Sequence record: PZ445429.1
Origin: a phage
DNA length: 64,000 nt
Direction: 5' to 3' (one strand)
The stretch's first letter is position 1; each line of letters starts with the position of its first letter. The notes under the pieces were generated by a model. It searched no databases, was not told the DNA's origin, and saw nothing but the letters and a program-made list of their open reading frames with translations. Position numbers and translations under genes: made by a program. Shown here in pieces: positions 1-25,432 of this stretch.

Positions 1-1317
1 ATGAAAGTCTCTAGAGACTATATTAACACCACAGATGTTATTGACTTTGGTATTGACAAACGATTTTTCCGTCTGCCAGTCTCTAGCATTCTAGCTCAAG
101 AGGGAATTACACCTAATGCTCCTCAGATTGCAATCATTAATGCGCTGGAAGACCCAAGACACCGTTTCGTAACTGCGTGTGTATCACGTCGTGTAGGTAA
201 GTCATTCATCGCATATACACTTGGGTTCTTAAAACTTCTGGAACCCAATGTGAAGGTGCTGGTAGTTGCACCTAACTACTCACTGGCTAACATCGGTTGG
301 TCACAGATTCGTGGTCTTATTAAGAAATATGGATTACAGACTGAACGTGAGAACGCCAAAGATAAAGAGATTGAACTAGCGAATGGTTCTCTCTTTAAGC
401 TGGCTTCCGCGGCGCAGGCTGACTCCGCGGTTGGTCGTTCATATGACTTCATCATTTTTGACGAAGCAGCGATTTCCGACGTTGGTGGTGCAGCTTTCGA
501 TATTCAGTTGCGTCCTACTCTAGATAAGCCAAACTCTAAAGCTCTGTTTATTTCCACACCTCGTGGTGGTAACTGGTTTAAAGAGTTCTACGAGAAAGGA
601 TTTAATGAAACGCTACCTAACTGGGTATCTATTCATGGTACATACCGTGATAACCCACGTGCTGACCTGAACGATATCGAGGAAGCGCGTCGTACTGTTA
701 GTAAAAACTATTTTCGTCAAGAATATGAGGCTGATTTCTCCGTATTCGAAGGTCAGATCTTTGATACCTTCAATGCTATCGAGCACGTTAAAGACCTCAA
801 AGGTATGCGTCACTTCTTTAAAGATGATGAGGCTTTCGAAACATTACTTGGTATCGACGTTGGTTATCGTGACCCTACAGCAGTTCTTACTATCAAGTAT
901 CACTATGATACTGATGTTTATTACGTATTAGAAGAGTATCAGCAGGCTGAAAAGACTACAGCTCAACACGCTGCTTACATACAGCACTGTATAGATCGTT
1001 ATAACGTTGATCGTATATTTGTAGACTCCGCTGCTGCTCAGTTCCGTCAGGACTTAGCATATGAACATGAAATCGCTTCTGCTCCTGCTAAGAAATCTGT
1101 CCTAGATGGTCTGGCATGCCTACAAGCACTGTTCCAGCAAGGTAAGATCATCGTAGATGCTTCATGTACCTCACTGATCCACGCCCTAGCGAACTACAAG
1201 TGGGACTTCCAGGAGGGCGAAGAGAAATTATCACGTGAAAAACCACGTCATGATGCGAACTCTCACCTTTGTGACGCACTACGTTATGGAATTTACTCAA
1301 TTTCCCGTGGGAAATAA
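1..1317 (+). CDS. terL: Terminase large subunit (T5 TerL-like, 438 aa)
   Basis: Full-length ORF from window base 1; Walker B-like DFIIFDEAA; C-terminal nuclease-like region; position immediately upstream of portal gene. Confidence 0.85.
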   Translation: MKVSRDYINTTDVIDFGIDKRFFRLPVSSILAQEGITPNAPQIAIINALEDPRHRFVTACVSRRVGKSFIAYTLGFLKLLEPNVKVLVVAPNYSLANIGWSQIRGLIKKYGLQTERENAKDKEIELANGSLFKLASAAQADSAVGRSYDFIIFDEAAISDVGGAAFDIQLRPTLDKPNSKALFISTPRGGNWFKEFYEKGFNETLPNWVSIHGTYRDNPRADLNDIEEARRTVSKNYFRQEYEADFSVFEGQIFDTFNAIEHVKDLKGMRHFFKDDEAFETLLGIDVGYRDPTAVLTIKYHYDTDVYYVLEEYQQAEKTTAQHAAYIQHCIDRYNVDRIFVDSAAAQFRQDLAYEHEIASAPAKKSVLDGLACLQALFQQGKIIVDASCTSLIHALANYKWDFQEGEEKLSREKPRHDANSHLCDALRYGIYSISRGK

Positions 1318-1431
1318 ATAAGTATAGGATGGGATACTACTCAGTTGGTATCCCATTCCTGCATTTTAAAATCCCCTTTACAAATTCGACATGATTATGT
1401 ATACTATATTCATACAGTTGAGGAGAATACT

Positions 1432-1869
1432 GTGGCAGGAAATGTAAAATATAAACGTGATGCTATATCACTCATGCGAGACGGTATAAAAAGTCAATAT
1501 AAAAAAGCCGATCGCTGCGAAATCTGTGGTTGTGGTGAAGAATTAGAGCTTCATCATTACCATACAGTGTCTCTACTAGTTAAAAAATTTGCTAAAGAAC
1601 TCCAATTGGATTTCACTGACGAAGAAACAGTCCTCTCAAATAGGACGGCATTCTATGAAAGATATAGGCATGAGCTAGTAGATGACACTGTTACCCTTTG
1701 TGTCCACCATCACCAACTATTACATAAGGTGTACACTAAAGAACCTCCCCTTTTCTCTGCTAATAAGCAGAAGGCATGGGTTCTTAAACAAAAGGAAAAG
1801 CTACAGAATCCTCAAGAAAAGACACAAGTCAAGACTGAAACTAAATCAGGATTCGCAAGGTTCTTATAA
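1432..1869 (+). CDS. HNH endonuclease (free-standing, between terminase and portal)
   Basis: CEICGCG...HHYH...CVHHHQLLH zinc/HNH motifs; GAGGAG RBS at 1420-1425 followed by in-frame GTG at 1432 (ORF track begins at 1345 with upstream ATG; true start uncertain). Confidence 0.7.
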   Translation: MAGNVKYKRDAISLMRDGIKSQYKKADRCEICGCGEELELHHYHTVSLLVKKFAKELQLDFTDEETVLSNRTAFYERYRHELVDDTVTLCVHHHQLLHKVYTKEPPLFSANKQKAWVLKQKEKLQNPQEKTQVKTETKSGFARFL

Positions 1870-3086
1870 TGGGTTTAAAAAGCTGGATTACTGAAAAGCT
1901 AAATCCGGGTCAACGTATTATAAGAGACATGGAACCAGTTAGTCATCGCACTAACCGTAAGCCATTTACCACTGGACAAGCCTACAGTAAGATTGAGATT
2001 CTCAACCGAACTGCTAACATGGTTATCGATAGTGCGGCGGAGTGTTCTTATACTGTCGGAGATAAATATAATATTGTCACGTACGCTAATGGCGTCAAGG
2101 CAAAGACTCTAGACACTCTCTTAAATGTACGACCTAATCCATTCATGGATATAAGCACATTCCGTAGACTTGTAGTCACTGACCTACTTTTTGAGGGTTG
2201 TGCATACATCTATTGGGATGGCACAGCACTTTACCATGTCCCTGCTGCACTAATGCAAGTAGAGGCAGATGCCAATAAGTTTATCAAAAAATTCATATTT
2301 AATAACCAGATAGACTATCGCGTAGATGAGATTATCTTTATAAAGGATAACAGTTACGTGTGTGGCACAAACTCCCAAATTTCTGGACAATCTCGTGTTG
2401 CTACAGTTATTGACTCTCTTGAGAAGCGTTCTAAAATGCTTAACTTTAAAGAGAAGTTCCTCGATAACGGCACTGTGATTGGTCTTATTCTTGAGACGGA
2501 TGAAATCCTGAACAAGAAATTGCGTGAGCGTAAACAAGAAGAATTACAACTCGATTATAATCCTAGTACGGGTCAGTCTACTGTCCTGATTCTAGATGGT
2601 GGTATGAAAGCAAAACCGTACTCCCAAATATCCTCTTTTAAAGATCTAGACTTCAAGGAAGATATCGAAGGATTTAATAAATCCATCTGTCTTGCCTTTG
2701 GTGTTCCGCAAGTGTTACTTGATGGTGGTAATAATGCTAACATTCGACCAAACATCGAATTGTTCTATTACATGACTATCATTCCTATGCTGAACAAGCT
2801 GACTAGTTCTCTTACTTTCTTCTTTGGCTACAAGGTTACTCCTAATACTAAGGAAGTAGCTGCACTGACGCCAGATAAAGAAGCTGAGGCTAAACATTTA
2901 ACCTCTTTGGTTAATAACGGTATCATGACTGGTAACGAGGCTCGTGAAGAGCTTAACCTTGAACCTTTAGATGATGAGCAGATGAATAAGATTCGTATTC
3001 CTGCTAACGTTGCTGGTTCTGCAACAGGTGTATCTGGTCAAGAAGGTGGTAGACCGCAAGGCACTGCCGATGGGGATAAAGAATGA
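1869..3086 (+). CDS. Portal protein (T5 pb7-like, 405 aa)
   Basis: Size and position after terminase; start overlaps stop of upstream ORF; conserved order portal-decoration-protease-capsid. Confidence 0.8.
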   Translation: MGLKSWITEKLNPGQRIIRDMEPVSHRTNRKPFTTGQAYSKIEILNRTANMVIDSAAECSYTVGDKYNIVTYANGVKAKTLDTLLNVRPNPFMDISTFRRLVVTDLLFEGCAYIYWDGTALYHVPAALMQVEADANKFIKKFIFNNQIDYRVDEIIFIKDNSYVCGTNSQISGQSRVATVIDSLEKRSKMLNFKEKFLDNGTVIGLILETDEILNKKLRERKQEELQLDYNPSTGQSTVLILDGGMKAKPYSQISSFKDLDFKEDIEGFNKSICLAFGVPQVLLDGGNNANIRPNIELFYYMTIIPMLNKLTSSLTFFFGYKVTPNTKEVAALTPDKEAEAKHLTSLVNNGIMTGNEAREELNLEPLDDEQMNKIRIPANVAGSATGVSGQEGGRPQGTADGDKE

Positions 3087-3673
3087 TTGATTATGATGGT
3101 CTAAAGGCCATTTTTGGTGAAAAGCTGCCAGAATCTCATATCTTCTTTGCTACGGTTGCAGCACACAAGTTCGTTCCAAACTATGCTACTCTACGTAAAG
3201 AGTTTGGAATGACCACTGCACATACCAACCGCAAGGTTTGGAATAAGTTCAAAGAAGCATACGAAGTTACTGCTCCGGTTGTTCCAAACTATGCTACTCT
3301 ACGTAAAGAGTTTGGAATGACCACTGCACATACCAACCGCAAGGTTTGGAATAAGTTCAAAGAAGCATACGAAGTTACTGCTCCGGTTGTTCCGGCTATA
3401 GCTTTCACGAAGAATCTGGCTAAAACTCTAGCTGTTGATACTGGTGCAGCAATTAATCTGGGCGTAACAGTTACTGGTGGTACTGCACCATATACTTATG
3501 CTTGGACTAAAGACGGTTCTCCACTTAGTGGTGTTACTGGCCCTAATTTCAACAAAGCTACAGCTGCTGCAGAAGATGCTGGTACTTACAAAGTTGTTGT
3601 AACGGATAGCAAATCTACTTCCATTACTTCTAATGAGTGTGTAACAACTATCAACCCTGCGCTGGGGGCTTAA
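3083..3673 (+). CDS. Capsid decoration protein with C-terminal Ig-like domain (T5 pb10-like), carrying an internal 36-aa tandem duplication
   Basis: C-terminal Ig-like signature (TVTGGTAPYTYAWTKDGSPLSGVTGPNF...AGTYKVVVTD); position between portal and protease; 196 aa, which is 160 aa without the duplicated unit. Confidence 0.7.
   Translation: MIDYDGLKAIFGEKLPESHIFFATVAAHKFVPNYATLRKEFGMTTAHTNRKVWNKFKEAYEVTAPVVPNYATLRKEFGMTTAHTNRKVWNKFKEAYEVTAPVVPAIAFTKNLAKTLAVDTGAAINLGVTVTGGTAPYTYAWTKDGSPLSGVTGPNFNKATAAAEDAGTYKVVVTDSKSTSITSNECVTTINPALGA
3173..3388. repeat. Perfect 2 x 108-bp tandem direct repeat inside the decoration-protein CDS
   Basis: Unit gttccaaactatgctactctacgtaaagag...gctccggtt at 3173-3280 is repeated identically at 3281-3388; in frame (36 codons: VPNYATLRKEFGMTTAHTNRKVWNKFKEAYEVTAPV x2). 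Confidence 0.95.
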
Positions 3674-3676
3674 TAA

Positions 3677-4309
3677 ATGACAAATGCTGCTATTGACTAT
3701 AACAAGTTAAAATCAGCACCGGTTCATTTAGACGCTTACATTAAGTCTATTGATAGCGAATCCAAAGAGGGTGTTGTAAAAATCCGTGGATTCGCTAATA
3801 CAATTAGTAAAGATCGCGCTGGTGACGTAATTCCTGCTTCGGCATGGAAAACGTCTAATGCACTTGCTAACTACATGAAAAACCCGATTATTCTTTTCGG
3901 CCACGACCATCGTCGTCCAATCGGCAAGTGTATTGATCTTAACCCTACTGAAATGGGTCTCGAAATTGAATGCGAGATTTATGAAAGTTCTGATCCAGCT
4001 ATCTTCTCACTAATTAAAAACGGTGTACTGAAAACCTTCAGTATCGGATTCCGCTGCCTAGACGCAGAATGGGATGAAGCTACTGACATATTTATTATTA
4101 AAGATTTAGAACTATACGAAGTTTCGGTAGTTTCTGTACCTTGTAATCAGGACTCAACGTTCAACCTCGCTAAGAGTATGAATGGCCACGATTACACTGA
4201 ATGGCGCAAATCTTTTACTGCAACAAGTTCTAAGGCTGTCCCAGCTCAAGAACGTAATCTTTCTGAACTAGAAAAACTTGCGATAGCTTTAGGCTACGTT
4301 AAAGAATAA
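3677..4309 (+). CDS. Prohead maturation protease (T5 pb11-like, 210 aa)
   Basis: Size identical to T5 pb11; sits directly upstream of major capsid gene. Confidence 0.75.
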   Translation: MTNAAIDYNKLKSAPVHLDAYIKSIDSESKEGVVKIRGFANTISKDRAGDVIPASAWKTSNALANYMKNPIILFGHDHRRPIGKCIDLNPTEMGLEIECEIYESSDPAIFSLIKNGVLKTFSIGFRCLDAEWDEATDIFIIKDLELYEVSVVSVPCNQDSTFNLAKSMNGHDYTEWRKSFTATSSKAVPAQERNLSELEKLAIALGYVKE

Positions 4310-4326
4310 CGGAGAATTATTTAAAA

Positions 4327-5703
4327 ATGACTATTGATATTAATAAGCTGAAGGAAGAACTTGGTCTGGGTGATCTGGCTAAATCTCTGGAAGGTCTGAC
4401 TGCTGCTCAGAAAGCTGCGGAAGCTAAGCGTCTGCGTGAAGAGCAGGAAGAAAAAGAATTGGCTCGTATGAACGACCTAGTATCTAAAGCTGTTGGTGAA
4501 GACCGTAAGCGTCTGGAAGAAGCTCTGGATCTGGTTAAGAACCTGGATGAGAAGTCTAAGAAGAGCGCAGAACTGTTTGCACAGACTGTAGAAAAGCAAC
4601 AGGAAACCATCGTTGGTCTTCAGGACGAAATCAAGTCTCTGTTGGCAGCTCGTGAAGGTCGTTCCTTCGTTGGTGATAGCGTAGCTAAAGCTCTTTATGG
4701 CACTCAGGATGTTTTCGAAGATGAAGTTGAGAAACTGGTTCTTCTGTCTTATATGATGGAGAAAGACGTATTCGAAACTGAACATGGTAAGGCTCACGTT
4801 AAAGCTGTTAACGGTTCTTCTTCCGTTTCCATGTCTAGCGAAGCATACGAAACTATCTTCTCTACCCGTATTATCCGTGACCTGCAGAAGGAACTGGTAG
4901 TTGGCGCACTGTTCGATGAACTGCCAATGTCCAGCAAAATCCTTACTATGCTCGTTGAACCAGAAGCTGGTCGTGCTACTTGGGTAGATGCTTCCAAATT
5001 CGGTACTGACGAAACTGTTGGTGACGAAGTTAAAGGTCAACTGACTGAAATCAGCTTCAAAACTTACAAGCTGGCTGCTAAATCCTTCATCACTGATGAA
5101 ACTGAAGAAGATGCAATCTTCTCCCTGCTGCCTCTGCTGCGTAAGCGTCTGATCGAAGCACACGCTGTTTCTATCGAAGAAGCTTTCATGTCTGGTAATG
5201 GTACTGGTCAGCCTAAGGGTCTGCTGAAACTGGCTGCTGATGATGGTGCTAAGGTTGTTACCGAAGCTAAAGCTGACGGTTCTGTTCTGGTAACTGCTAA
5301 GACTATCTCCAAGCTGCGTCGTAAACTGGGCCGTCACGGTCTGAAACTGAGCAAACTGGTACTGATCGTATCTATGGATGCTTACTACGATCTGCTGGAA
5401 GATGAAGAATGGCAGGATGTTGCCCAGGTTGGTAACGATGCTGTTAAACTGCAGGGTCAGGTTGGTCGTATTTACGGTCTGCCGGTTGTAGTTTCTGAGT
5501 ACTTCCCAGCTAAAGCTGCTTCCGCTGAATTCGCAGTTATTGTTTATAAAGATAACTTCGTAATGCCGCGTCAGCGTGCCGTTACTGTTGAACGTGAGCG
5601 CCAAGCTGGCAAACAGCGTGACGCATACTACGTTACCCAGCGTGTTAACCTGCAACGTTACTTCGAAAACGGCGTTGTATCTGGTGCTTACGCTGCATCT
5701 TAA
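4327..5703 (+). CDS. Major capsid protein precursor (T5 pb8-like, 458 aa) with N-terminal coiled-coil scaffold (delta) domain
   Basis: 458 aa; N-terminal about 150 aa charged coiled-coil (scaffolding-like), HK97-fold-like remainder; strongly host-optimised codon usage (ctg/cgt/ggt) suggesting very high expression; followed by terminator. Confidence 0.85.
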   Translation: MTIDINKLKEELGLGDLAKSLEGLTAAQKAAEAKRLREEQEEKELARMNDLVSKAVGEDRKRLEEALDLVKNLDEKSKKSAELFAQTVEKQQETIVGLQDEIKSLLAAREGRSFVGDSVAKALYGTQDVFEDEVEKLVLLSYMMEKDVFETEHGKAHVKAVNGSSSVSMSSEAYETIFSTRIIRDLQKELVVGALFDELPMSSKILTMLVEPEAGRATWVDASKFGTDETVGDEVKGQLTEISFKTYKLAAKSFITDETEEDAIFSLLPLLRKRLIEAHAVSIEEAFMSGNGTGQPKGLLKLAADDGAKVVTEAKADGSVLVTAKTISKLRRKLGRHGLKLSKLVLIVSMDAYYDLLEDEEWQDVAQVGNDAVKLQGQVGRIYGLPVVVSEYFPAKAASAEFAVIVYKDNFVMPRQRAVTVERERQAGKQRDAYYVTQRVNLQRYFENGVVSGAYAAS

Positions 5704-5724
5704 TACAGGCTTTTCAGCCGATAA

Positions 5725-5750
5725 GGAGAGCTTCGGCTCTCCTTTTTTAT
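5725..5750 (+). terminator. Rho-independent terminator after major capsid gene
   Basis: GC hairpin ggagagc-ttcg-gctctcc followed by TTTTTT. Confidence 0.75.
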
Positions 5751-20095: not shown

Positions 20096-20518
20096 ATGAG
20101 TACAGAAAACCGAGTTATTGATATTGTTGTTGATGAGAAAGTACCTTATGGTCTTATCATGCAGTTTATGGATGTTGATGACAGTGTATATCCACCAACA
20201 GAAGTTCCTGTTAACTTAACCGGATATTCACTCCGAGGAACTATTAAATCTAGTTTAGATGAGAACGCCGAGGTTCTAGCTAACTTTAAAACTCGTGTTA
20301 TTGATGCTGCTCAAGGTGCTGCTGCAATTAGTCTTTCCGTTGCAGACGTTACTAATATTGGTGAAAAAGCATCTAAAGAACGTGATAAGTATAACCCAAG
20401 ACAACGTTTTGCTGGTTATTATGATATCCTAATGACTCGTGATGTAATTGGCTCTGAAGTCAGTTCTTTCCGTATTATGGAAGGTAAAGTATACATCAGC
20501 GATGGAGTAACTCAATAA
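20096..20518 (+). CDS. Tail collar protein (T5 p132-like, 140 aa)
   Basis: Size identical to T5 p132; immediately upstream of lateral fibre gene. Confidence 0.65.
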
Positions 20519-22557
20519 TGGCACTTAAAACTAAAATTATTGTACAGCAGATTCTGAACATAGATGACACTACAACTACTGCTAGTAAGTATCCTAAATA
20601 TACAGTAGTTTTAGGTAACTCTATCAGTTCTATTACTGCGGGTGAACTGACTGCGGCTGTGGAATCATCCGCAGCTTCAGCTGCTGCTGCAAAAGATTCT
20701 GAAATTGCAGCAAAATTATCTGAAACTAACGCTAGAGACTCAGAAAATAGAGCTGCTATTTACGCTGATTCTTCTGAAGCTTCTGCTACTCAAGCAGCTA
20801 CTTCTGCTACGGAATCTGAGAGACAAGCTGGATTATCTAAGGCTAGCGCTGAAGAATCCGCTGCATCTGCTACAGAAGCCGGCACACACAAAGATGCGGC
20901 TCAGTTAGCTGCTCAAAATGCTGAAAGAAGTAGAGAACTAGCCGAACAAGCTAAAACTGCTGCTCAACAAGCTCAAGTAGCCGCTGAAACTGCACAAACT
21001 GGTGCAGAAACTGCTAAAGAAGGAGCCGATGCTGCTGCAACAACTGCTGGTGAGCATGCTGCTGCTGCTAAGCAATCAGAACTAAACGCTAAGATTTCTG
21101 AAACTAATGCTGCTGGTTCTGCTACTGAAGCTGGCGATAAAGCTATCGATGCTACTACTGAGGCAGATCGTGCTAAAGCTGAGGCAGATCGTGCTACTCA
21201 GGTTGTTGATGGTAAACTTGATAAAGTAGATATTTCTGGTTTTATCAAAGTTTATAAGACGAAAGCAGAAGCTGATGCTGATGTTGCAAACCGTGTTCTA
21301 GACGAAAAGGTTCTAGTCTGGAATCAAACTGATTCAAAGTACGGTTGGTATAAAGTTGCTGGTACTGCTGAAGCTCCTGTCCTAGAGTTAGTAGAAACCG
21401 AGCAAAAACTCGTATCAATCAACAACGTTCATGCAGATGATGCAGGTAACGTACAGATTACACTTCCGGGTGGTAACCCTTCTCTATGGTTGGGTGAAGT
21501 TACTTGGTTCCCTTATAACAAGGATTCAGGTGTTGGTTACCCTGGTGTTCTACCTGCTGATGGCCGTGAAGTTCTTCGTGTAGACTATCCAGATACTTGG
21601 GAAGCTATTGAAGCTGGTCTGATTCCTTCTGTTTCAGAAGCTGAATGGCAAGCCGGTGCAACTCTCTACTTCTCCACTGGTGACGGTTCTACCACATTCC
21701 GCCTACCAGATATGATGCAAGGACAGGCATTCCGTGCACCAACTAAAGGCGAAGAAGATGCTGGTGCTATCAAGGAACAGATCCCCTATATCACTACTGT
21801 TAACGGAATCAGTCCTGCTGATGATACTGGTGCTATTAAGCTTCCTTACGTGGCAATGGTTAATGGTACTATTGTACCAGATGAGAATGGAAACCTTGCA
21901 TTAGGTAACGTTGTTACCAAAAATATATGGGATGGGGTTAATGGGGAAGTTCTGCTACGTGGTGCCTTTGGTTTGGGTGGTGCAGGTATTGCGCTAAATG
22001 AACCTAATTTAGTATCCTTCTTCAAGGCTATGCGTGCCTTTGGTTCTGGTTATTATCGTAATGATACAGGTACTGAGGGCCTACCATCATACTCCGCTGG
22101 ATTCTACTCTAAGACTGGTGATACGCACTCCTTTATCTGTCCACAGTACTCAAGTGGTATTGTTTTTGTTGGTACTATTAATGATAATGTACTTGATGGT
22201 GAATCACCTGTGGTACATACTAATATTCTTTATGGTACTGCAAATAAGCCTGATTTAAATAATGATACTCAAGGAATTCTTGGTATTAGTAAAGGTGGTA
22301 CAGGGGCGACGAATGCAGCAGGTGCAAGGGCTAACATAGAATTAGGAGAAACTAATACACCTAGCTTTGCCGAAGTTGCTGCTAGCTTATATAATGGATT
22401 CAATTCTGGTCTGTTATATATGAGGAATCACGATGCTTCTAGAAACTTAATTTCTTATTCCTCTATTTACAACGAACTTCAATCTGGTGTAGCGAAAACA
22501 ACAATAAGGACTACAAACTCAACCACCGATAAAACAGCCTTCTACCAGTTTGACTAA
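20518..22557 (+). CDS. Lateral (L-shaped) tail fibre protein, N-terminal part (LtfA-like), ending at an in-frame TAA
   Basis: Ala-rich heptad coiled-coil N-terminus typical of T5 pb1-type fibres; ends at TAA 22555-22557; the same frame continues open into the next ORF. Confidence 0.7.
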   Translation: MALKTKIIVQQILNIDDTTTTASKYPKYTVVLGNSISSITAGELTAAVESSAASAAAAKDSEIAAKLSETNARDSENRAAIYADSSEASATQAATSATESERQAGLSKASAEESAASATEAGTHKDAAQLAAQNAERSRELAEQAKTAAQQAQVAAETAQTGAETAKEGADAAATTAGEHAAAAKQSELNAKISETNAAGSATEAGDKAIDATTEADRAKAEADRATQVVDGKLDKVDISGFIKVYKTKAEADADVANRVLDEKVLVWNQTDSKYGWYKVAGTAEAPVLELVETEQKLVSINNVHADDAGNVQITLPGGNPSLWLGEVTWFPYNKDSGVGYPGVLPADGREVLRVDYPDTWEAIEAGLIPSVSEAEWQAGATLYFSTGDGSTTFRLPDMMQGQAFRAPTKGEEDAGAIKEQIPYITTVNGISPADDTGAIKLPYVAMVNGTIVPDENGNLALGNVVTKNIWDGVNGEVLLRGAFGLGGAGIALNEPNLVSFFKAMRAFGSGYYRNDTGTEGLPSYSAGFYSKTGDTHSFICPQYSSGIVFVGTINDNVLDGESPVVHTNILYGTANKPDLNNDTQGILGISKGGTGATNAAGARANIELGETNTPSFAEVAASLYNGFNSGLLYMRNHDASRNLISYSSIYNELQSGVAKTTIRTTNSTTDKTAFYQFD

Positions 22558-22611
22558 AATGGTCAATTTAGTGCTCAGAAAATAAAAATTGGTGCTAACT
22601 ACGCTTTTACA

Positions 22612-23580
22612 ATGGAAGGAGGTGAGCGAAACAATCTTGAGCTTTATGCCGGGGCTAGTGTTCCTTTGGATGATTGGGCTAACTTTACTAGGTATAACTG
22701 GTATAATGATATGTCAATATCCGGTGCTGTTAGATCTGGTTCAGACAAGATTAAATGTCATCGTTTAAGAGTTTATAGTCCTAGTATTGATGGGGCGGAC
22801 TTTGATTTCTATCCAACAGGCTACCATAAAGCGCGTGCATTTAATGCTGGCACTGTGGGTAACATTCATGGTTGGGGTATTGAGCAGTACGATAGTGGTA
22901 ATGGAATTCCATTCAATTCAGTGAGTACAACTAACAATAACGCATCATTCAGTCCGGTAGTCGCGGGAGGCACTTCAACTCCAAACGGTTATAACATACG
23001 TTTCGCAATTGGTATGTTGTCCCCGGGCGCCGCTGGATGGTCCAGGACAATACTCAAGCTGCTAGGTGATAACGATAAACATAGAGGATTTGAATTTAAC
23101 GTAGATGGTAGTTTAGGAACATGGGCAAACGCGCCCGGGGATATGTGGGGAGTTGGTTATGATTTTGCAAAAAACCCAACTTCAGACCGTGACTTAAAGA
23201 AAGAAATTATTTACACAGATGGAAAGGAAAGTTATGACCGTGTTATGCAGTGGTTGCCTACTATGTTTAAATATAAGTGGGGCGATACTCAACGTTATGG
23301 TCTTATAGCCCAGGATCTTGCAAAAATAGATCTTCAATATGTAAAAATCGTACCTGGCTCTCCAGTTTTTGAAGACGTAATTGGAGTTGACACGGATGGT
23401 AACGAATATGTGGATCGTCAAATTGAAACCGATAGAGCTGATGACACACTTGCTCTTGATAGTAACGTTATTCTAACGGATATGGCTTGTGCTATGGTGT
23501 ACATGGGTAATAAAATGAATACTTTAGAACAAGAGTTAGAACAACTCAAACAAGTTGTAGCTGCCTTAACTCCAGTATAA
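22612..23580 (+). CDS. Lateral tail fibre C-terminal part with intramolecular chaperone (peptidase S74-like) domain; same frame as upstream fibre ORF
   Basis: C-terminal chaperone signature (DRDLKKEIIY...YGLIAQDL...coiled coil QELEQLKQVVAALT); frame open from 22558; the annotated ATG at 22612 may not be the true start. Confidence 0.6.
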   Translation: MEGGERNNLELYAGASVPLDDWANFTRYNWYNDMSISGAVRSGSDKIKCHRLRVYSPSIDGADFDFYPTGYHKARAFNAGTVGNIHGWGIEQYDSGNGIPFNSVSTTNNNASFSPVVAGGTSTPNGYNIRFAIGMLSPGAAGWSRTILKLLGDNDKHRGFEFNVDGSLGTWANAPGDMWGVGYDFAKNPTSDRDLKKEIIYTDGKESYDRVMQWLPTMFKYKWGDTQRYGLIAQDLAKIDLQYVKIVPGSPVFEDVIGVDTDGNEYVDRQIETDRADDTLALDSNVILTDMACAMVYMGNKMNTLEQELEQLKQVVAALTPV

Positions 23581-23627
23581 AAAAAGTATAATAGGGGGCT
23601 TATGAAAGCCCCTATAAAGGTAATAAA

Positions 23628-25394
23628 ATGTCTAGACAATTAATGCCAAAAAGTGGGGCTATGGCCCCCTATGTTGTTGTTAACAGAGATGCGGCGGTTG
23701 CTGGTGTTTTCTCTGTTGATGGGGAGGCTGGTGCTGTTGTACTAACCTCTAAATATCTACAGCTTACAAAATATACTACTGATAAGACTGCTACTGACGC
23801 ATCTATTAATAGTATTAACGAATCAATAGGTAATATCAATACTGCTATTGGCGGTATTAACACTAACCTAGGTACGAAGGCGGCAAAAGGTGCTAATAAC
23901 GATATTACAGAATTAAACGCACTGACTAAGGCTATTACTATTGCTCAGGGTGGTACAGGTGCTAGCACCTTATTAGAGGCAAAAACAGCTTTACAAATAG
24001 ATCGTTTAAGACAGCAGGATAATGGTACCTTTATTACGTCTCCTGATGGAAAATATTCTTTATTCGTTTATAATAGCGGAGACTTTGGATTAATCAATAG
24101 TTCTACCGCTGCCGTCCAGGCCATGAAAGTGCAGTTCGGTGGAACAGGGGCTTCTGATGCTAAAACAGCAAGAAAAAATCTAGATGTTCCTGTAGGGGCT
24201 ACTGCTGTACCTATTCCTCCTAACAGTAATGTTCTTGGTTTTATTGGTGCTACCGGGCAAAGTGGTTACTACTCTTCAGGTAACCTAATTACCTTTGGTC
24301 CTCCAGTAGACGAGGATTGGTGGACTTTTAATTTTCACTGTCATAGTACAGATATTGATGGCTTCGCCCAATACGGTATATTGAAGGCGGTAGGAAAATC
24401 TGGAAGCTCATGGCTTACTATACTAAACGGTACTGGTAACTGGTTGCCGTGGCAAAAACAATTTAACGGTCAGTCTACCGTTCCTATTACAAATGGAGGG
24501 ACAGGAGCTACTACAGTGGCTAAGGCAAGAGAGAATCTCTTAGTAGACCAGGTAGATAGAGCGGGGGAACAATCAATGCTTTGGGCTCCGGATAAAGATA
24601 CCTATTTCTTTGTATATGCTGCAGGAGATTGGGGTGTCTACGATAAGTCTGCTGCTATTAGAAAACCTCTACCTATTGCTTCGGGAGGTACAGGAGGTAC
24701 AGATGTTAATACTGCCCGTAATAACTTATCTCTTGGCACACGTCAGCAAGTAATTTTCGACTCAGTATACCTGCCTGACTATAAAGGAGGGGATTGGTCG
24801 TATGGTTATGGTTGTAAAATTAATGGGGGTGCTCTATCTAGTTGGTCTTCTAGGCCTGTAGCTGTTAGCGTAGATGGTAACACTACTGATGTAGCTGTAG
24901 GTATTGCCAAAGTAACTATTCCTGGAAAGGGATACGCTTGTAACGTTGATGGTATCCTATGGGGGGATGGCACTTCTGAACTGGATATAATGACAGGTGC
25001 TTCCAGATTCTATTTCCATAGTGATGGGGGAGCTAGAGCATCTAACTGGATTAACGTTTCTGATATTAGAACTAAGTCTAATCTTACTAAGATCGAAGAT
25101 TCTCTAAGTAAGGTTAAGCTGTTATGCGGCTATACTTACCAGAAACGAACTAATATTGATGACCCTGAAAGCAAAGATTATTCTATGGAAGCAGGTATTA
25201 TTGCTCAGGATCTCCAGAAAGTATTACCTGAAGCTGTATACCAAGTAAGCCAAGACGGTTATCTTGGTGTTAGTTATGGTGGTGTTTCTGCTCTTCTAGT
25301 TAGCGCTGTTAACGAACTTAATGGGATTGTTGAGCAACAGAGGCAAGAAATTGATGAACTCAAGGAATTAGTAAAACAACTACTCACTAAGTAA
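23628..25394 (+). CDS. Second lateral tail fibre protein (LtfB-like, 588 aa) with C-terminal intramolecular chaperone domain
   Basis: Repeated GGTGA(T/S) fibre motifs; C-terminal chaperone signature (IRTKSNLTKIED...YSMEAGIIAQDL...EIDELKELVKQLL). Confidence 0.7.
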   Translation: MSRQLMPKSGAMAPYVVVNRDAAVAGVFSVDGEAGAVVLTSKYLQLTKYTTDKTATDASINSINESIGNINTAIGGINTNLGTKAAKGANNDITELNALTKAITIAQGGTGASTLLEAKTALQIDRLRQQDNGTFITSPDGKYSLFVYNSGDFGLINSSTAAVQAMKVQFGGTGASDAKTARKNLDVPVGATAVPIPPNSNVLGFIGATGQSGYYSSGNLITFGPPVDEDWWTFNFHCHSTDIDGFAQYGILKAVGKSGSSWLTILNGTGNWLPWQKQFNGQSTVPITNGGTGATTVAKARENLLVDQVDRAGEQSMLWAPDKDTYFFVYAAGDWGVYDKSAAIRKPLPIASGGTGGTDVNTARNNLSLGTRQQVIFDSVYLPDYKGGDWSYGYGCKINGGALSSWSSRPVAVSVDGNTTDVAVGIAKVTIPGKGYACNVDGILWGDGTSELDIMTGASRFYFHSDGGARASNWINVSDIRTKSNLTKIEDSLSKVKLLCGYTYQKRTNIDDPESKDYSMEAGIIAQDLQKVLPEAVYQVSQDGYLGVSYGGVSALLVSAVNELNGIVEQQRQEIDELKELVKQLLTK

Positions 25395-25395
25395 A

Positions 25396-25432
25396 AGAAA
25401 ACCCCAGTGGATTGTCCACTGGGGTTTATTAT
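25396..25432. terminator. Bidirectional terminator at the convergent junction of late (+) and early (-) blocks
   Basis: Perfect 10-bp stem ccccagtgga/tccactgggg with 2-nt loop, A-run on the left and T-run on the right. Confidence 0.8.

What the first reader, a model, noticed from the sequence alone, without database searches (positions are those of the whole stretch)
23628..25394. Two consecutive fibre genes, each carrying its own C-terminal intramolecular chaperone domain
Classical T5 has one very long L-shaped fibre gene. Here the fibre region comprises a roughly 1019-aa fibre (split by the TAA) ending in a chaperone domain, followed by a second 588-aa fibre with an independent chaperone domain. 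This is the architecture of branched lateral fibres with two receptor-binding specificities described for some T5-like phages, and implies polyvalent O-antigen or receptor recognition.
Basis: partly seen in the sequence, partly recalled or inferred. Interest (0 to 1): 0.5.

Follow-up and report, generated by a model that had tools for sequence, protein, structure and literature searches.

The report
Known two-gene T5-like side-fibre locus
This is the ordinary, already described two-protein side-fibre locus (ltfA plus ltfB) of a T5-like phage; each fibre protein ends in its own self-cleaving folding domain, and the only oddity is a one-base stop codon that breaks the first fibre gene in this genome.

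Summary
ORF 23628-25394 encodes a 588-aa fibre protein. The gene before it (20518-23580) has 1019 sense codons and one in-frame TAA (22555-22557). Both proteins end in a Pfam Peptidase_S74 intramolecular-chaperone domain, and both keep the Ser-x4-Lys dyad of T5 pb1 (Ser1264/Lys1269): LtfA S889/K894, LtfB S478/K483.

The locus is ltfC-ltfA-ltfB of an Epseptimavirus. It is 97.3% identical in DNA to phage vB_EcoS_Ace, and LtfB is 586/588 identical. It passes every sequence test of the DT57C-type branched fibre:
- an LtfA anchor like T5 pb1 and DT57C LtfA;
- a central LtfA region like phiEco32 gp14 and SU10 gp12;
- an LtfB N-terminus like phiEco32 gp15.

This architecture was published in 2016, and similar DNA is found in more than 300 phage records, so it is already known.

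The TAA is a single G-to-T change of a GAA codon that is conserved in four relatives. As written, this genome cannot make an anchored LtfA with its receptor tip and chaperone. The most likely cause is a recent loss-of-function mutation, of the kind that arises readily when such phages are grown on rough hosts. A sequencing error is the alternative. Interest is low.

The parts
20096..20518 (+). ltfC, the collar/assembly protein to which the lateral fibre attaches (140 aa)
   Evidence: Pfam LtfC PF23926, E 1.9e-15. 95% identical to DT57C LtfC. Its stop overlaps the ltfA start by one base.
20518..23580 (+). ltfA, 1020 codons, interrupted by an ochre codon at codon 680
   Evidence: Same length and position as the intact 3063-nt tail fibre gene of phage Ace. 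991 of 1020 codons give the same residue as in Ace. PHROG 5481 tail fiber, E 1e-251.
20518..21207 (+). LtfA residues 1-230: N-terminal anchor and Ala-rich coiled-coil shaft
   Evidence: 49% identity to T5 pb1 residues 1-215. PDB 8HQZ chain d (DT57C LtfA), E 4e-244 over residues 1-458. 63 Ala in residues 40-230.
21184..22359 (+). LtfA residues 223-614: region like phiEco32 gp14 and SU10 gp12, the proposed docking site for LtfB
   Evidence: BLASTP to phiEco32 gp14 residues 239-607, E 6e-38. PDB 7Z47_D (SU10 long tail fibre proximal protein) aligns to residues 230-442, E 1.7e-44. The docking role is inferred from PMC4728585.
22555..22557 (+). In-frame TAA (ochre) at LtfA codon 680
   Evidence: Ace, EscoHU1, GEC_vB_N3 and EH1 all have GAA (Glu) here, so this is a single G-to-T change. 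The flanking sequence is otherwise identical to Ace.
22612..23181 (+). LtfA residues 699-888: distal, variable receptor-binding region. It lies downstream of the stop, so it is not made as part of an anchored fibre.
   Evidence: 99.5% identical to Ace and 98.4% to Salmonella phages EH1/EH7, falling to 40-60% in other T5-like phages.
23182..23580 (+). LtfA intramolecular chaperone domain (residues 889-1020). Predicted cleavage at T888|S889, with S889 at 23182-23184 and K894 at 23197-23199.
   Evidence: Pfam PF13884. The TSDRDLK motif aligns with T5 pb1 T1263-S1264...K1269. The top 11 Foldseek hits of the AF2 model are all IMC/ICA domains: 7DC3, 3GW6, 4UW8, 3GUD.
23594..23613 (+). GC-rich 8-bp hairpin in the ltfA-ltfB intergenic gap
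   Evidence: dG -13.8 kcal/mol, z -2.2. EscoHU1, DT57C, KKP 3953 and TrudiGerster also have a self-complementary stretch in the same gap, GC-rich in the first three, each with a different sequence. This was read by eye from the alignment; those sequences were not folded.
23628..25394 (+). ltfB, an intact 588-aa second fibre gene (the coordinates of the finding)
   Evidence: 586/588 identical to Ace QNR52196. PHROG 12321 tail fiber, E 2.5e-234.
23628..23768 (+). LtfB residues 1-47: N-terminal adaptor like phiEco32 gp15, the proposed attachment to LtfA
   Evidence: 70% identity to phiEco32 gp15 residues 1-47, E 9e-17. LtfB residues 1-198 are 55% identical to DT57C LtfB.
23934..24728 (+). LtfB shaft: two copies of an 83-aa module (residues 103-185 and 285-367), each bounded by GGTG(A/G)...NL motifs, flanking a roughly 100-aa insert
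   Evidence: The modules are 36% identical, E 5e-19. There are four GGTG motifs, at residues 108, 171, 290 and 353.
24807..25058 (+). LtfB residues 394-477: distal tip just before the cleavage site, the putative receptor-binding end
   Evidence: PHROG matches to fibre tips start at about residue 394. The wider region 199-477 is 99.6% identical to Ace, 88% to Salmonella phage JNwz02 and below 60% in most other records.
25059..25394 (+). LtfB intramolecular chaperone domain (residues 478-588). Predicted cleavage at V477|S478, with S478 at 25059-25061 and K483 at 25074-25076.
   Evidence: Pfam PF13884 full length, E 2.6e-12. PDB 6F45_A, E 2.9e-11. S, D, K and the G-IAQDL motif are invariant in alignment A4. 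The profile built from A4 hits 6F45, the 8HQZ C-terminus and 7DC3.
25399..25427 (.). Bidirectional intrinsic terminator that closes the fibre operon
   Evidence: 13-bp stem with T-runs on both strands. T5 has an annotated bidirectional terminator at the equivalent place.

Best explanation
The region is the lateral (L-shaped) tail fibre operon ltfC-ltfA-ltfB of an Epseptimavirus, a T5-like siphophage. In the intact form of this system, LtfA trimers are anchored by their N-termini in the LtfC collar. LtfB trimers dock by their gp15-like N-terminus onto the gp14-like central region of LtfA, which gives a branched fibre with two distal tips. Each protein is folded and trimerised from its C-terminus by its own S74 intramolecular chaperone domain. 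That domain then cuts itself off (LtfA at T888|S889, LtfB at V477|S478, Ser-Lys dyad) and exposes the receptor-binding tip. The tips probably bind O-antigen and let the phage pass the O-antigen layer before pb5 binds its outer-membrane receptor. In this genome, ltfA carries a recent single-base nonsense mutation (GAA to TAA, codon 680). An anchored, full-length LtfA with its tip and chaperone therefore cannot be made, while ltfB is intact. The phage is expected to have lost LtfA-dependent host recognition, and probably all lateral fibre function. It should still grow on rough hosts that lack O-antigen. Shown here: gene structure, homologies, domains, the dyads and the point mutation. Inferred: branching, cleavage, O-antigen binding and the phenotype. 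I put about 0.95 on the architecture being the known LtfA/LtfB system and about 0.65 on the stop codon being a real mutation and not a base-calling error.
For: Gene order and annotation match Ace, EscoHU1 (annotated 'L-shaped tail fiber protein A/B') and DT57C. LtfA residues 1-442 are 88% identical to DT57C LtfA, LtfA 223-614 matches phiEco32 gp14 (E 6e-38), LtfB 1-47 is 70% identical to phiEco32 gp15, and LtfC is 95% identical to DT57C LtfC. PDB 8HQZ and 7Z47 match LtfA. Both C-termini exceed the Pfam S74 cut-off. The S-x4-K dyads align with T5 pb1 S1264/K1269, whose role was shown experimentally (PMC4690869). The fold search with the LtfA C-terminal model returns only IMC/ICA structures at the top. 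A single G-to-T change creates the TAA, against GAA in four relatives. Downstream of the stop there is only one other nucleotide difference from Ace in ltfA, so there has been no decay. The other large genes of the window have normal T5-like lengths, so this is not a generally poor assembly. The literature supports branching, two specificities, the requirement for ltfA, and LTF-less mutants reaching about 30% of clones on E. coli C600 (PMC4728585; PMC10713586).
Against: No reads are available, so the TAA could be a consensus error. Broken LTF genes in other deposited genomes (KKP 3953, 100268_sal2) may include artefacts. Branching has never been resolved at high resolution, even for DT57C: LtfB density was weak or absent in cryo-EM. 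In SU10 the homologous pair is described as the proximal and distal parts of one fibre. The LtfB chaperone fold could not be confirmed by modelling (pLDDT 54.8). Receptor identity is untested.
Confidence: 0.8

Rival explanations
1. The TAA is a sequencing or consensus error, or a minority allele called as consensus. The phage really has an intact LtfA and a fully functional two-tipped branched fibre, exactly like phage Ace.
For: The difference is one base. The codon is GAA in all four relatives that share this segment. The sequence downstream of the stop shows no decay. Other deposited T5-like genomes show fragmented fibre genes that could be artefacts.
Against: It is a substitution and not a homopolymer indel. 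No other large gene in the 64-kb window looks broken. Spontaneous LTF-null mutants are documented to reach about 30% of clones when such phages are grown on a rough host, so a real mutation is expected to be common.
Confidence: 0.3
2. The truncated LtfA (residues 1-679) still assembles. It keeps the anchor, the coiled coil and the gp14-like docking region, all upstream of the stop, and so acts as a stump that displays only the LtfB branch. The phage would then be monovalent, not fibre-less.
For: The stop lies at codon 680, beyond the region homologous to phiEco32 gp14 and SU10 gp12 (residues 223-614). A functional DT571/2-ABF fusion kept LtfA residues 1-663. The Ala-rich coiled coil may trimerise on its own. 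ltfB is intact.
Against: Fibres of the S74 class depend on the C-terminal chaperone for trimer folding (established knowledge on K1F endosialidase and T5 pb1; PMC4690869). The ABF fusion regained a chaperone from LtfB, whereas the similar fusion DT530(1) was nearly inactive. There are no data on C-terminally truncated LtfA.
Confidence: 0.15
3. LtfA and LtfB form one serial fibre with proximal and distal halves joined at an elbow, as described for the homologous SU10 gp12/gp13 pair. There would be only one functional tip and no branch.
For: The SU10 paper describes gp12 as the proximal and gp13 as the distal long-tail-fibre protein, with one elbow. LtfA residues 230-442 match SU10 gp12.
Against: LtfA continues for about 400-550 residues beyond the gp14-like region and has its own variable tip and its own chaperone with an intact dyad. 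The phiEco32 gp14 C-terminus did not align to the S-x4-K motif. DT57C and DT571/2 genetics assign separate specificities to LtfA and LtfB.
Confidence: 0.05

Closest known systems
LtfA/LtfB branched lateral tail fibres of T5-like phages DT57C and DT571/2 (Golomidova et al. 2016, PMC4728585; Ayala et al. 2023, PMC10713586)
   Same: Same gene order ltfC-ltfA-ltfB next to dut. LtfA residues 1-442 are 88% identical, LtfC 95%, and the LtfB N-terminal 198 residues 55%. The gp14-like and gp15-like modules are the same. Both proteins end in pfam13884.
   Different: The distal halves are unrelated, so the receptor tips differ. LtfB is shorter (588 against 788 aa). Here the C-terminal parts of ltfA and ltfB share no significant similarity and no long DNA repeats, unlike DT57C. 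ltfA is interrupted by an ochre codon here.
Escherichia phage vB_EcoS_Ace (MT833283), tail fibre proteins QNR52187 and QNR52196
   Same: 97.3% DNA identity over the whole locus. LtfB is 586/588 identical and the LtfA distal tip 99.5% identical. Gene lengths are the same.
   Different: Ace has GAA at LtfA codon 680, so its gene is intact. The window differs from Ace in a mosaic patch at 21500-22300 that is closer to Salmonella phage GEC_vB_N3.
T5 pb1 (Ltf), a single L-shaped tail fibre with a C-terminal intramolecular chaperone (PDB 4UW7/4UW8; PMC4690869)
   Same: Homologous N-terminal anchor (49% over 230 aa). C-terminal S74 chaperone with a Thr/Val-Ser...Lys cleavage motif. Same genomic position.
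   Different: T5 has one 1396-aa protein and no LtfB. The receptor domain is unrelated.
Kuravirus fibre pair phiEco32 gp14/gp15 and SU10 gp12/gp13 (PDB 7Z47; PMC9509320)
   Same: The central part of LtfA matches gp14/gp12, and the N-terminus of LtfB matches gp15.
   Different: These are podovirus fibres attached to an adaptor ring and described as proximal and distal segments. The gp14 C-terminus shows no S-x4-K motif in my alignment.
Peptidase S74 / intramolecular chaperone domains (K1F endosialidase 3GW6, GA-1 gp12 3GUD, MyRF ICA 7DC3)
   Same: Sequence family, Ser-Lys dyad, C-terminal location, long terminal helix, and fold for the LtfA domain.
   Different: Only 12-18% identity to the solved structures. 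Cleavage was not demonstrated here.

Membership tests
DT57C-type LtfA/LtfB branched lateral tail fibre locus | Two adjacent large fibre genes directly downstream of ltfC, in place of the single T5 ltf | tested here: met
   ltfC at 20096-20518 (Pfam LtfC), ltfA at 20518-23580, ltfB at 23628-25394, then a terminator and dut on the opposite strand. Same layout in DT57C, Ace and EscoHU1.
DT57C-type LtfA/LtfB branched lateral tail fibre locus | LtfA N-terminus homologous to the tail-anchoring N-terminus of T5 pb1 and DT57C LtfA | tested here: met
   88% identity to DT57C LtfA residues 1-442. 49% identity to T5 pb1 residues 1-215. PDB 8HQZ_d, E 4e-244.
DT57C-type LtfA/LtfB branched lateral tail fibre locus | Central LtfA region homologous to phiEco32 gp14, the proposed LtfB dock | tested here: met
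   LtfA 223-614 against gp14 239-607, E 6e-38. SU10 gp12 (7Z47_D), E 1.7e-44.
DT57C-type LtfA/LtfB branched lateral tail fibre locus | LtfB N-terminal ~45 residues homologous to the phiEco32 gp15 N-terminus | tested here: met
   70% identity over residues 1-47, E 9e-17.
DT57C-type LtfA/LtfB branched lateral tail fibre locus | Both genes are intact open reading frames | tested here: not met
   ltfA has an in-frame TAA at codon 680 (22555-22557), where relatives have GAA. ltfB is intact.
DT57C-type LtfA/LtfB branched lateral tail fibre locus | LtfB is physically attached through LtfA, and the two tips recognise different receptors | not testable with these tools
   Known only from DT57C and DT571/2 genetics. 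It would need virion proteomics, EM and host-range tests.
Peptidase S74 intramolecular chaperone domain (PF13884) | Profile match above the curated threshold at the extreme C-terminus | tested here: met
   LtfA 30 bits and LtfB 47.3 bits against a cut-off of 22. All database homologues found carry PF13884. The profile of both domains hits 6F45, the 8HQZ C-terminus, 8JOV and 7DC3.
Peptidase S74 intramolecular chaperone domain (PF13884) | Catalytic Ser with Lys five residues downstream, equivalent to T5 pb1 Ser1264/Lys1269 | tested here: met
   LtfA TSDRDLK (S889, K894) and LtfB VSDIRTK (S478, K483) align with T5 NTSDARLK. S, D and K are invariant in alignment A4. The T5 residues are from PMC4690869.
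Peptidase S74 intramolecular chaperone domain (PF13884) | IMC fold: mixed alpha/beta body plus a long C-terminal coiled-coil helix | tested here: inconclusive
   LtfA C-terminus: AF2 model with pLDDT 63.6, and the top 11 Foldseek hits are all IMC/ICA structures (7DC3 at E 9e-4, then 3GW6, 4UW8, 3GUD), which is supportive. LtfB C-terminus: model pLDDT 54.8 and no meaningful hits. Both models have the long terminal helix.
Peptidase S74 intramolecular chaperone domain (PF13884) | Autoproteolytic release after trimer folding | not testable with these tools
   Needs protein expression, with S889A and S478A controls.
T5-type single L-shaped tail fibre (pb1) | One ~1400-aa fibre gene and no second fibre gene | tested here: not met
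   T5 has a 1396-aa ltf followed directly by the terminator. Here there are two genes.
Kuravirus serial proximal/distal long tail fibre (SU10 gp12/gp13) | The proximal protein serves only as a shaft and has no receptor tip or chaperone of its own | tested here: not met
   LtfA has a variable distal region and its own S74 domain. The phiEco32 gp14 C-terminus did not align to the cleavage motif.

The most novel reading that the evidence does not exclude
The ochre codon may be more than simple gene loss. It lies just distal to the predicted LtfB docking region. A stable LtfA(1-679) stump could still carry LtfB, which would turn a bivalent branched fibre into a monovalent one. That would be a one-step, revertible way for a T5-like phage to drop one receptor specificity while keeping the other.
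Probability: 0.12. Interest if true: 0.35.

Novelty: already known. Interest (0 to 1): 0.12.

Why it matters
It matters little beyond annotation. The locus should be labelled ltfC / ltfA (disrupted, E680 ochre) / ltfB. Host-range predictions for this phage should not assume two working fibre tips. By near-identity of both tips to phage Ace, which is reported as O157:H7-specific, a repaired ltfA would probably restore an Ace-like host range. This is relevant only if the phage is considered for biocontrol. The truncation position offers a cheap natural test of whether the LtfA C-terminal chaperone is needed to assemble the proximal part of the fibre and to display LtfB.

Tried and rejected
- Suppressor tRNA or recoding of the TAA: ARAGORN finds no tRNA gene in the 64-kb window. 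No evidence for readthrough was found, and this was not pursued.
- Same allele elsewhere: an exact-pattern scan of IMG/VR for the TAA/GAA context found nothing. Neither the 679-aa truncated product nor this exact LtfB is in the gene-position index. The source genome and independent occurrences of the stop could therefore not be traced.
- Reinitiation at ATG 22612 to give a free 322-aa C-terminal fragment: I saw no Shine-Dalgarno-like sequence upstream of it, and such a fragment would lack the anchor. Rejected as a functional product.
- Recent duplication of ltfA into ltfB, or recombination-prone repeats as in DT57C: BLASTP between the two proteins and between their C-termini is not significant, and there are no long direct DNA repeats.
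- Sequence search of the LtfA C-terminal ORF against PDB chains gave no hit. This was resolved by modelling plus Foldseek and by a profile search.
- The AF2 model of the LtfB C-terminus was too poor (pLDDT 54.8), and its fold search was uninformative.
- The two large homologue searches returned only 6 and 2 proteins, so the alignments for modelling stayed shallow.
- The promoter scan over the locus was not above the shuffled expectation (14 found against 15.9).
Full report
**1. What is in the sequence**

Between 20096 and 25427 the + strand carries a compact operon. It holds a 140-aa ORF (20096-20518), a 679-aa ORF (20518-22557), a 322-aa ORF in the same frame (22612-23580) and a 588-aa ORF (23628-25394). 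The 679-aa and 322-aa ORFs are separated only by a TAA at 22555-22557 and 17 sense codons. Together they form one reading frame of 1019 sense codons with one internal stop. The short ORFs on the opposite strand inside these genes have no support and lie within genes that are annotated as continuous in relatives.

**2. Identity of the locus**

The 5.6-kb region is 97.3% identical to Escherichia phage vB_EcoS_Ace, an Epseptimavirus of the Demerecviridae. Similar DNA is found in 315 phage records, mostly Salmonella and Escherichia T5-like phages. In Ace the same positions are annotated as a tail protein, a 3063-nt tail fibre gene and a 1767-nt tail fibre gene. In EscoHU1 they are named L-shaped tail fiber protein A and B. 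The flanks of the window are about 98% identical to many Epseptimaviruses.

Upstream genes match Pfam models of T5 pb4, and the 140-aa ORF matches Pfam LtfC.

**3. Test against the published branched-fibre system**

Golomidova et al. (PMC4728585) defined the DT57C and DT571/2 system by four features:
- two genes, ltfA and ltfB;
- an LtfA N-terminus like T5 Ltf;
- an LtfA region like phiEco32 gp14 and an LtfB N-terminus like phiEco32 gp15, which is the basis for proposing that LtfB docks on LtfA;
- pfam13884 chaperone domains on both proteins.

I fetched DT57C, phiEco32 and T5 and compared them with the window.
- LtfA residues 1-442 are 88% identical to DT57C LtfA.
- LtfA residues 223-614 match gp14 residues 239-607 (E 6e-38).
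- LtfB residues 1-47 are 70% identical to gp15 residues 1-47.
- LtfB residues 1-198 are 55% identical to DT57C LtfB.
- LtfC is 95% identical to DT57C LtfC.
- LtfA residues 1-230 are 49% identical to T5 pb1.

Against solved structures, LtfA matches the DT57C LtfA chain of 8HQZ (E 4e-244) and the SU10 long-tail-fibre proximal protein 7Z47_D (E 1.7e-44). Every sequence-level criterion is met.

**4. The two chaperone domains**

Pfam Peptidase_S74 matches both C-termini above the gathering score: LtfB with 47.3 bits over the full-length model, LtfA with 30 bits.

In T5 pb1 the bond Thr1263-Ser1264 is cut, with Ser1264 activated by Lys1269. The S1264A mutant is not processed, and the uncleaved chaperone masks receptor binding (PMC4690869). 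In my alignments the motif is conserved in both window proteins:
- LtfA: T888-S889-D-R-D-L-K894;
- LtfB: V477-S478-D-I-R-T-K483.

In an alignment of both window domains with six database homologues, the Ser, the Asp, the Lys and the G-IAQDL motif are invariant. A profile of that alignment finds the S16 fibre construct 6F45, the DT57C LtfA C-terminus, 8JOV and the MyRF ICA domain.

An AlphaFold2 model of the LtfA C-terminus has modest confidence (pLDDT 63.6). Its top eleven Foldseek hits are nevertheless only intramolecular-chaperone structures: 7DC3, 3GW6, 4UW8 and 3GUD. The LtfB model was too poor to use, but LtfB has the stronger sequence evidence.

The two domains are not recent copies of each other. 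BLASTP between them is not significant, and the genes share no long DNA repeats. This fits the view that ltfB was acquired by recombination and not by duplication (PMC10644984).

**5. The stop codon**

The TAA replaces GAA (Glu680). GAA is present in Ace, EscoHU1, GEC_vB_N3 and EH1, the four fetched relatives that share this segment. It is a single G-to-T transversion.

Downstream of it, ltfA differs from Ace at only one further nucleotide. The event is therefore very recent, or it is an error. No tRNA gene, and so no suppressor, is present in the window. The other large genes in the window have normal lengths for T5-like phages.

The stop lies distal to the gp14-like region and about 210 residues before the cleavage site. 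The encoded anchored product (679 aa) lacks the variable tip and the chaperone domain.

Golomidova et al. found that an ltfA amber mutant loses infection of hosts recognised by either LtfA or LtfB but still grows on rough strains. They also found that about 30% of clones grown on E. coli C600 had spontaneously lost fibre function. A spontaneous null allele fixed during propagation on a rough host is therefore the most economical explanation (my estimate 0.65). A base-calling error is second (0.3). Within the 'real mutation' case there remains the possibility that the truncated LtfA still displays LtfB.

The window starts exactly at the ATG of a 438-aa ORF. This suggests a deposited, re-oriented isolate genome and not a metagenomic contig, but its origin could not be traced.

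**6. Likely specificity**

The LtfA distal region (residues 699-888) is 99.5% identical to Ace and 98.4% to Salmonella phages EH1/EH7. The LtfB distal half is 99.6% identical to Ace and about 88% to Salmonella phages JNwz02 and KKP 3953. Most other T5-like phages are below 60% in both, which is the pattern expected of exchangeable receptor modules.

Ace is reported to be highly specific for O157:H7, with some Citrobacter freundii and Shigella sonnei strains (PMC9512901). By inference only, an intact version of this locus would give an Ace-like host range. Which tip binds what is unknown.

**7. Branch or series?**

The SU10 paper describes the homologous gp12 and gp13 as the proximal and distal parts of one elbowed fibre. 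DT57C cryo-EM did not resolve LtfB. The branched geometry therefore rests on genetics.

For this locus a purely serial fibre is unlikely. LtfA continues for several hundred residues beyond the docking region and has its own variable tip and self-cleaving chaperone.

**8. Verdict**

BASEL (PMC8594841) and the BF23 paper also note one-gene and two-gene fibre variants across the Markadamsvirinae.

The functional implication of polyvalence does not hold for this genome as written, because ltfA is broken. Novelty: already known. Interest: low.

Noticed in passing
window 23594-23613: An 8-bp GC-rich hairpin (AGGGGGCUU-AUGA-AAGCCCCU, -13.8 kcal/mol, z -2.2) with no T-run sits between the ltfA stop and the ltfB start. 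EscoHU1, DT57C, KKP 3953 and TrudiGerster each show a self-complementary stretch in the same gap, GC-rich in the first three, but with unrelated sequence. This was judged by eye from the alignment; those sequences were not folded. The structure may be conserved, for example as an attenuator or an mRNA-stability element that sets the LtfA:LtfB ratio.
   Followed up: partly
window 21500-22300 (LtfA residues ~415-592): This is a mosaic patch. About 128 of the 152 nucleotide differences from phage Ace across the 5.6-kb locus fall here. Over 21400-22700, which contains the patch, the window is closer to Salmonella phage GEC_vB_N3 (93.6%) than to Ace (90.2%). This suggests a recombination tract in the fibre shaft, not the tip.
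   Followed up: partly
window 23934-24182 and 24480-24728 (LtfB residues 103-185 and 285-367): LtfB contains an internal duplication of an 83-aa module (36% identity, E 5e-19). Each copy is bounded by GGTG(A/G)...NL motifs. The same motif occurs once in LtfA, at residue 593.
   Followed up: partly
window 25399-25427: A perfect 13-bp-stem bidirectional terminator lies five bases after the ltfB stop, between the convergent fibre operon and the dut-side genes. T5 has an annotated bidirectional terminator at the equivalent position.
   Followed up: partly
window 1-1317: The window begins exactly at the ATG of a 438-aa ORF. The fibre locus sits at nearly the same coordinates as in BASEL phage TrudiGerster (20465-26472). 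This suggests the source record is an isolate genome re-oriented to start at that first gene, which I take from memory to be the large terminase subunit and did not check.
   Followed up: no
L006 (Salmonella phage KKP 3953) 723-5741; L007 (phage 100268_sal2) 3806-5789: Other deposited T5-like genomes also have fragmented fibre genes. In KKP 3953 ltfA is annotated as four CDS and ltfB as two, and in 100268_sal2 ltfB is two overlapping CDS. Broken LTF genes, whether real or artefactual, seem common in this group.
   Followed up: no
database searches: The 5.8-billion-protein homologue search returned only 6 and 2 hits for the two chaperone-containing C-termini and none of the many T5-like phage fibres. 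The LtfA hits include proteins named as bacterial in the database (Citrobacter sp., E. coli). This hints that this LtfA-type tip plus chaperone module also occurs in prophages.
   Followed up: no
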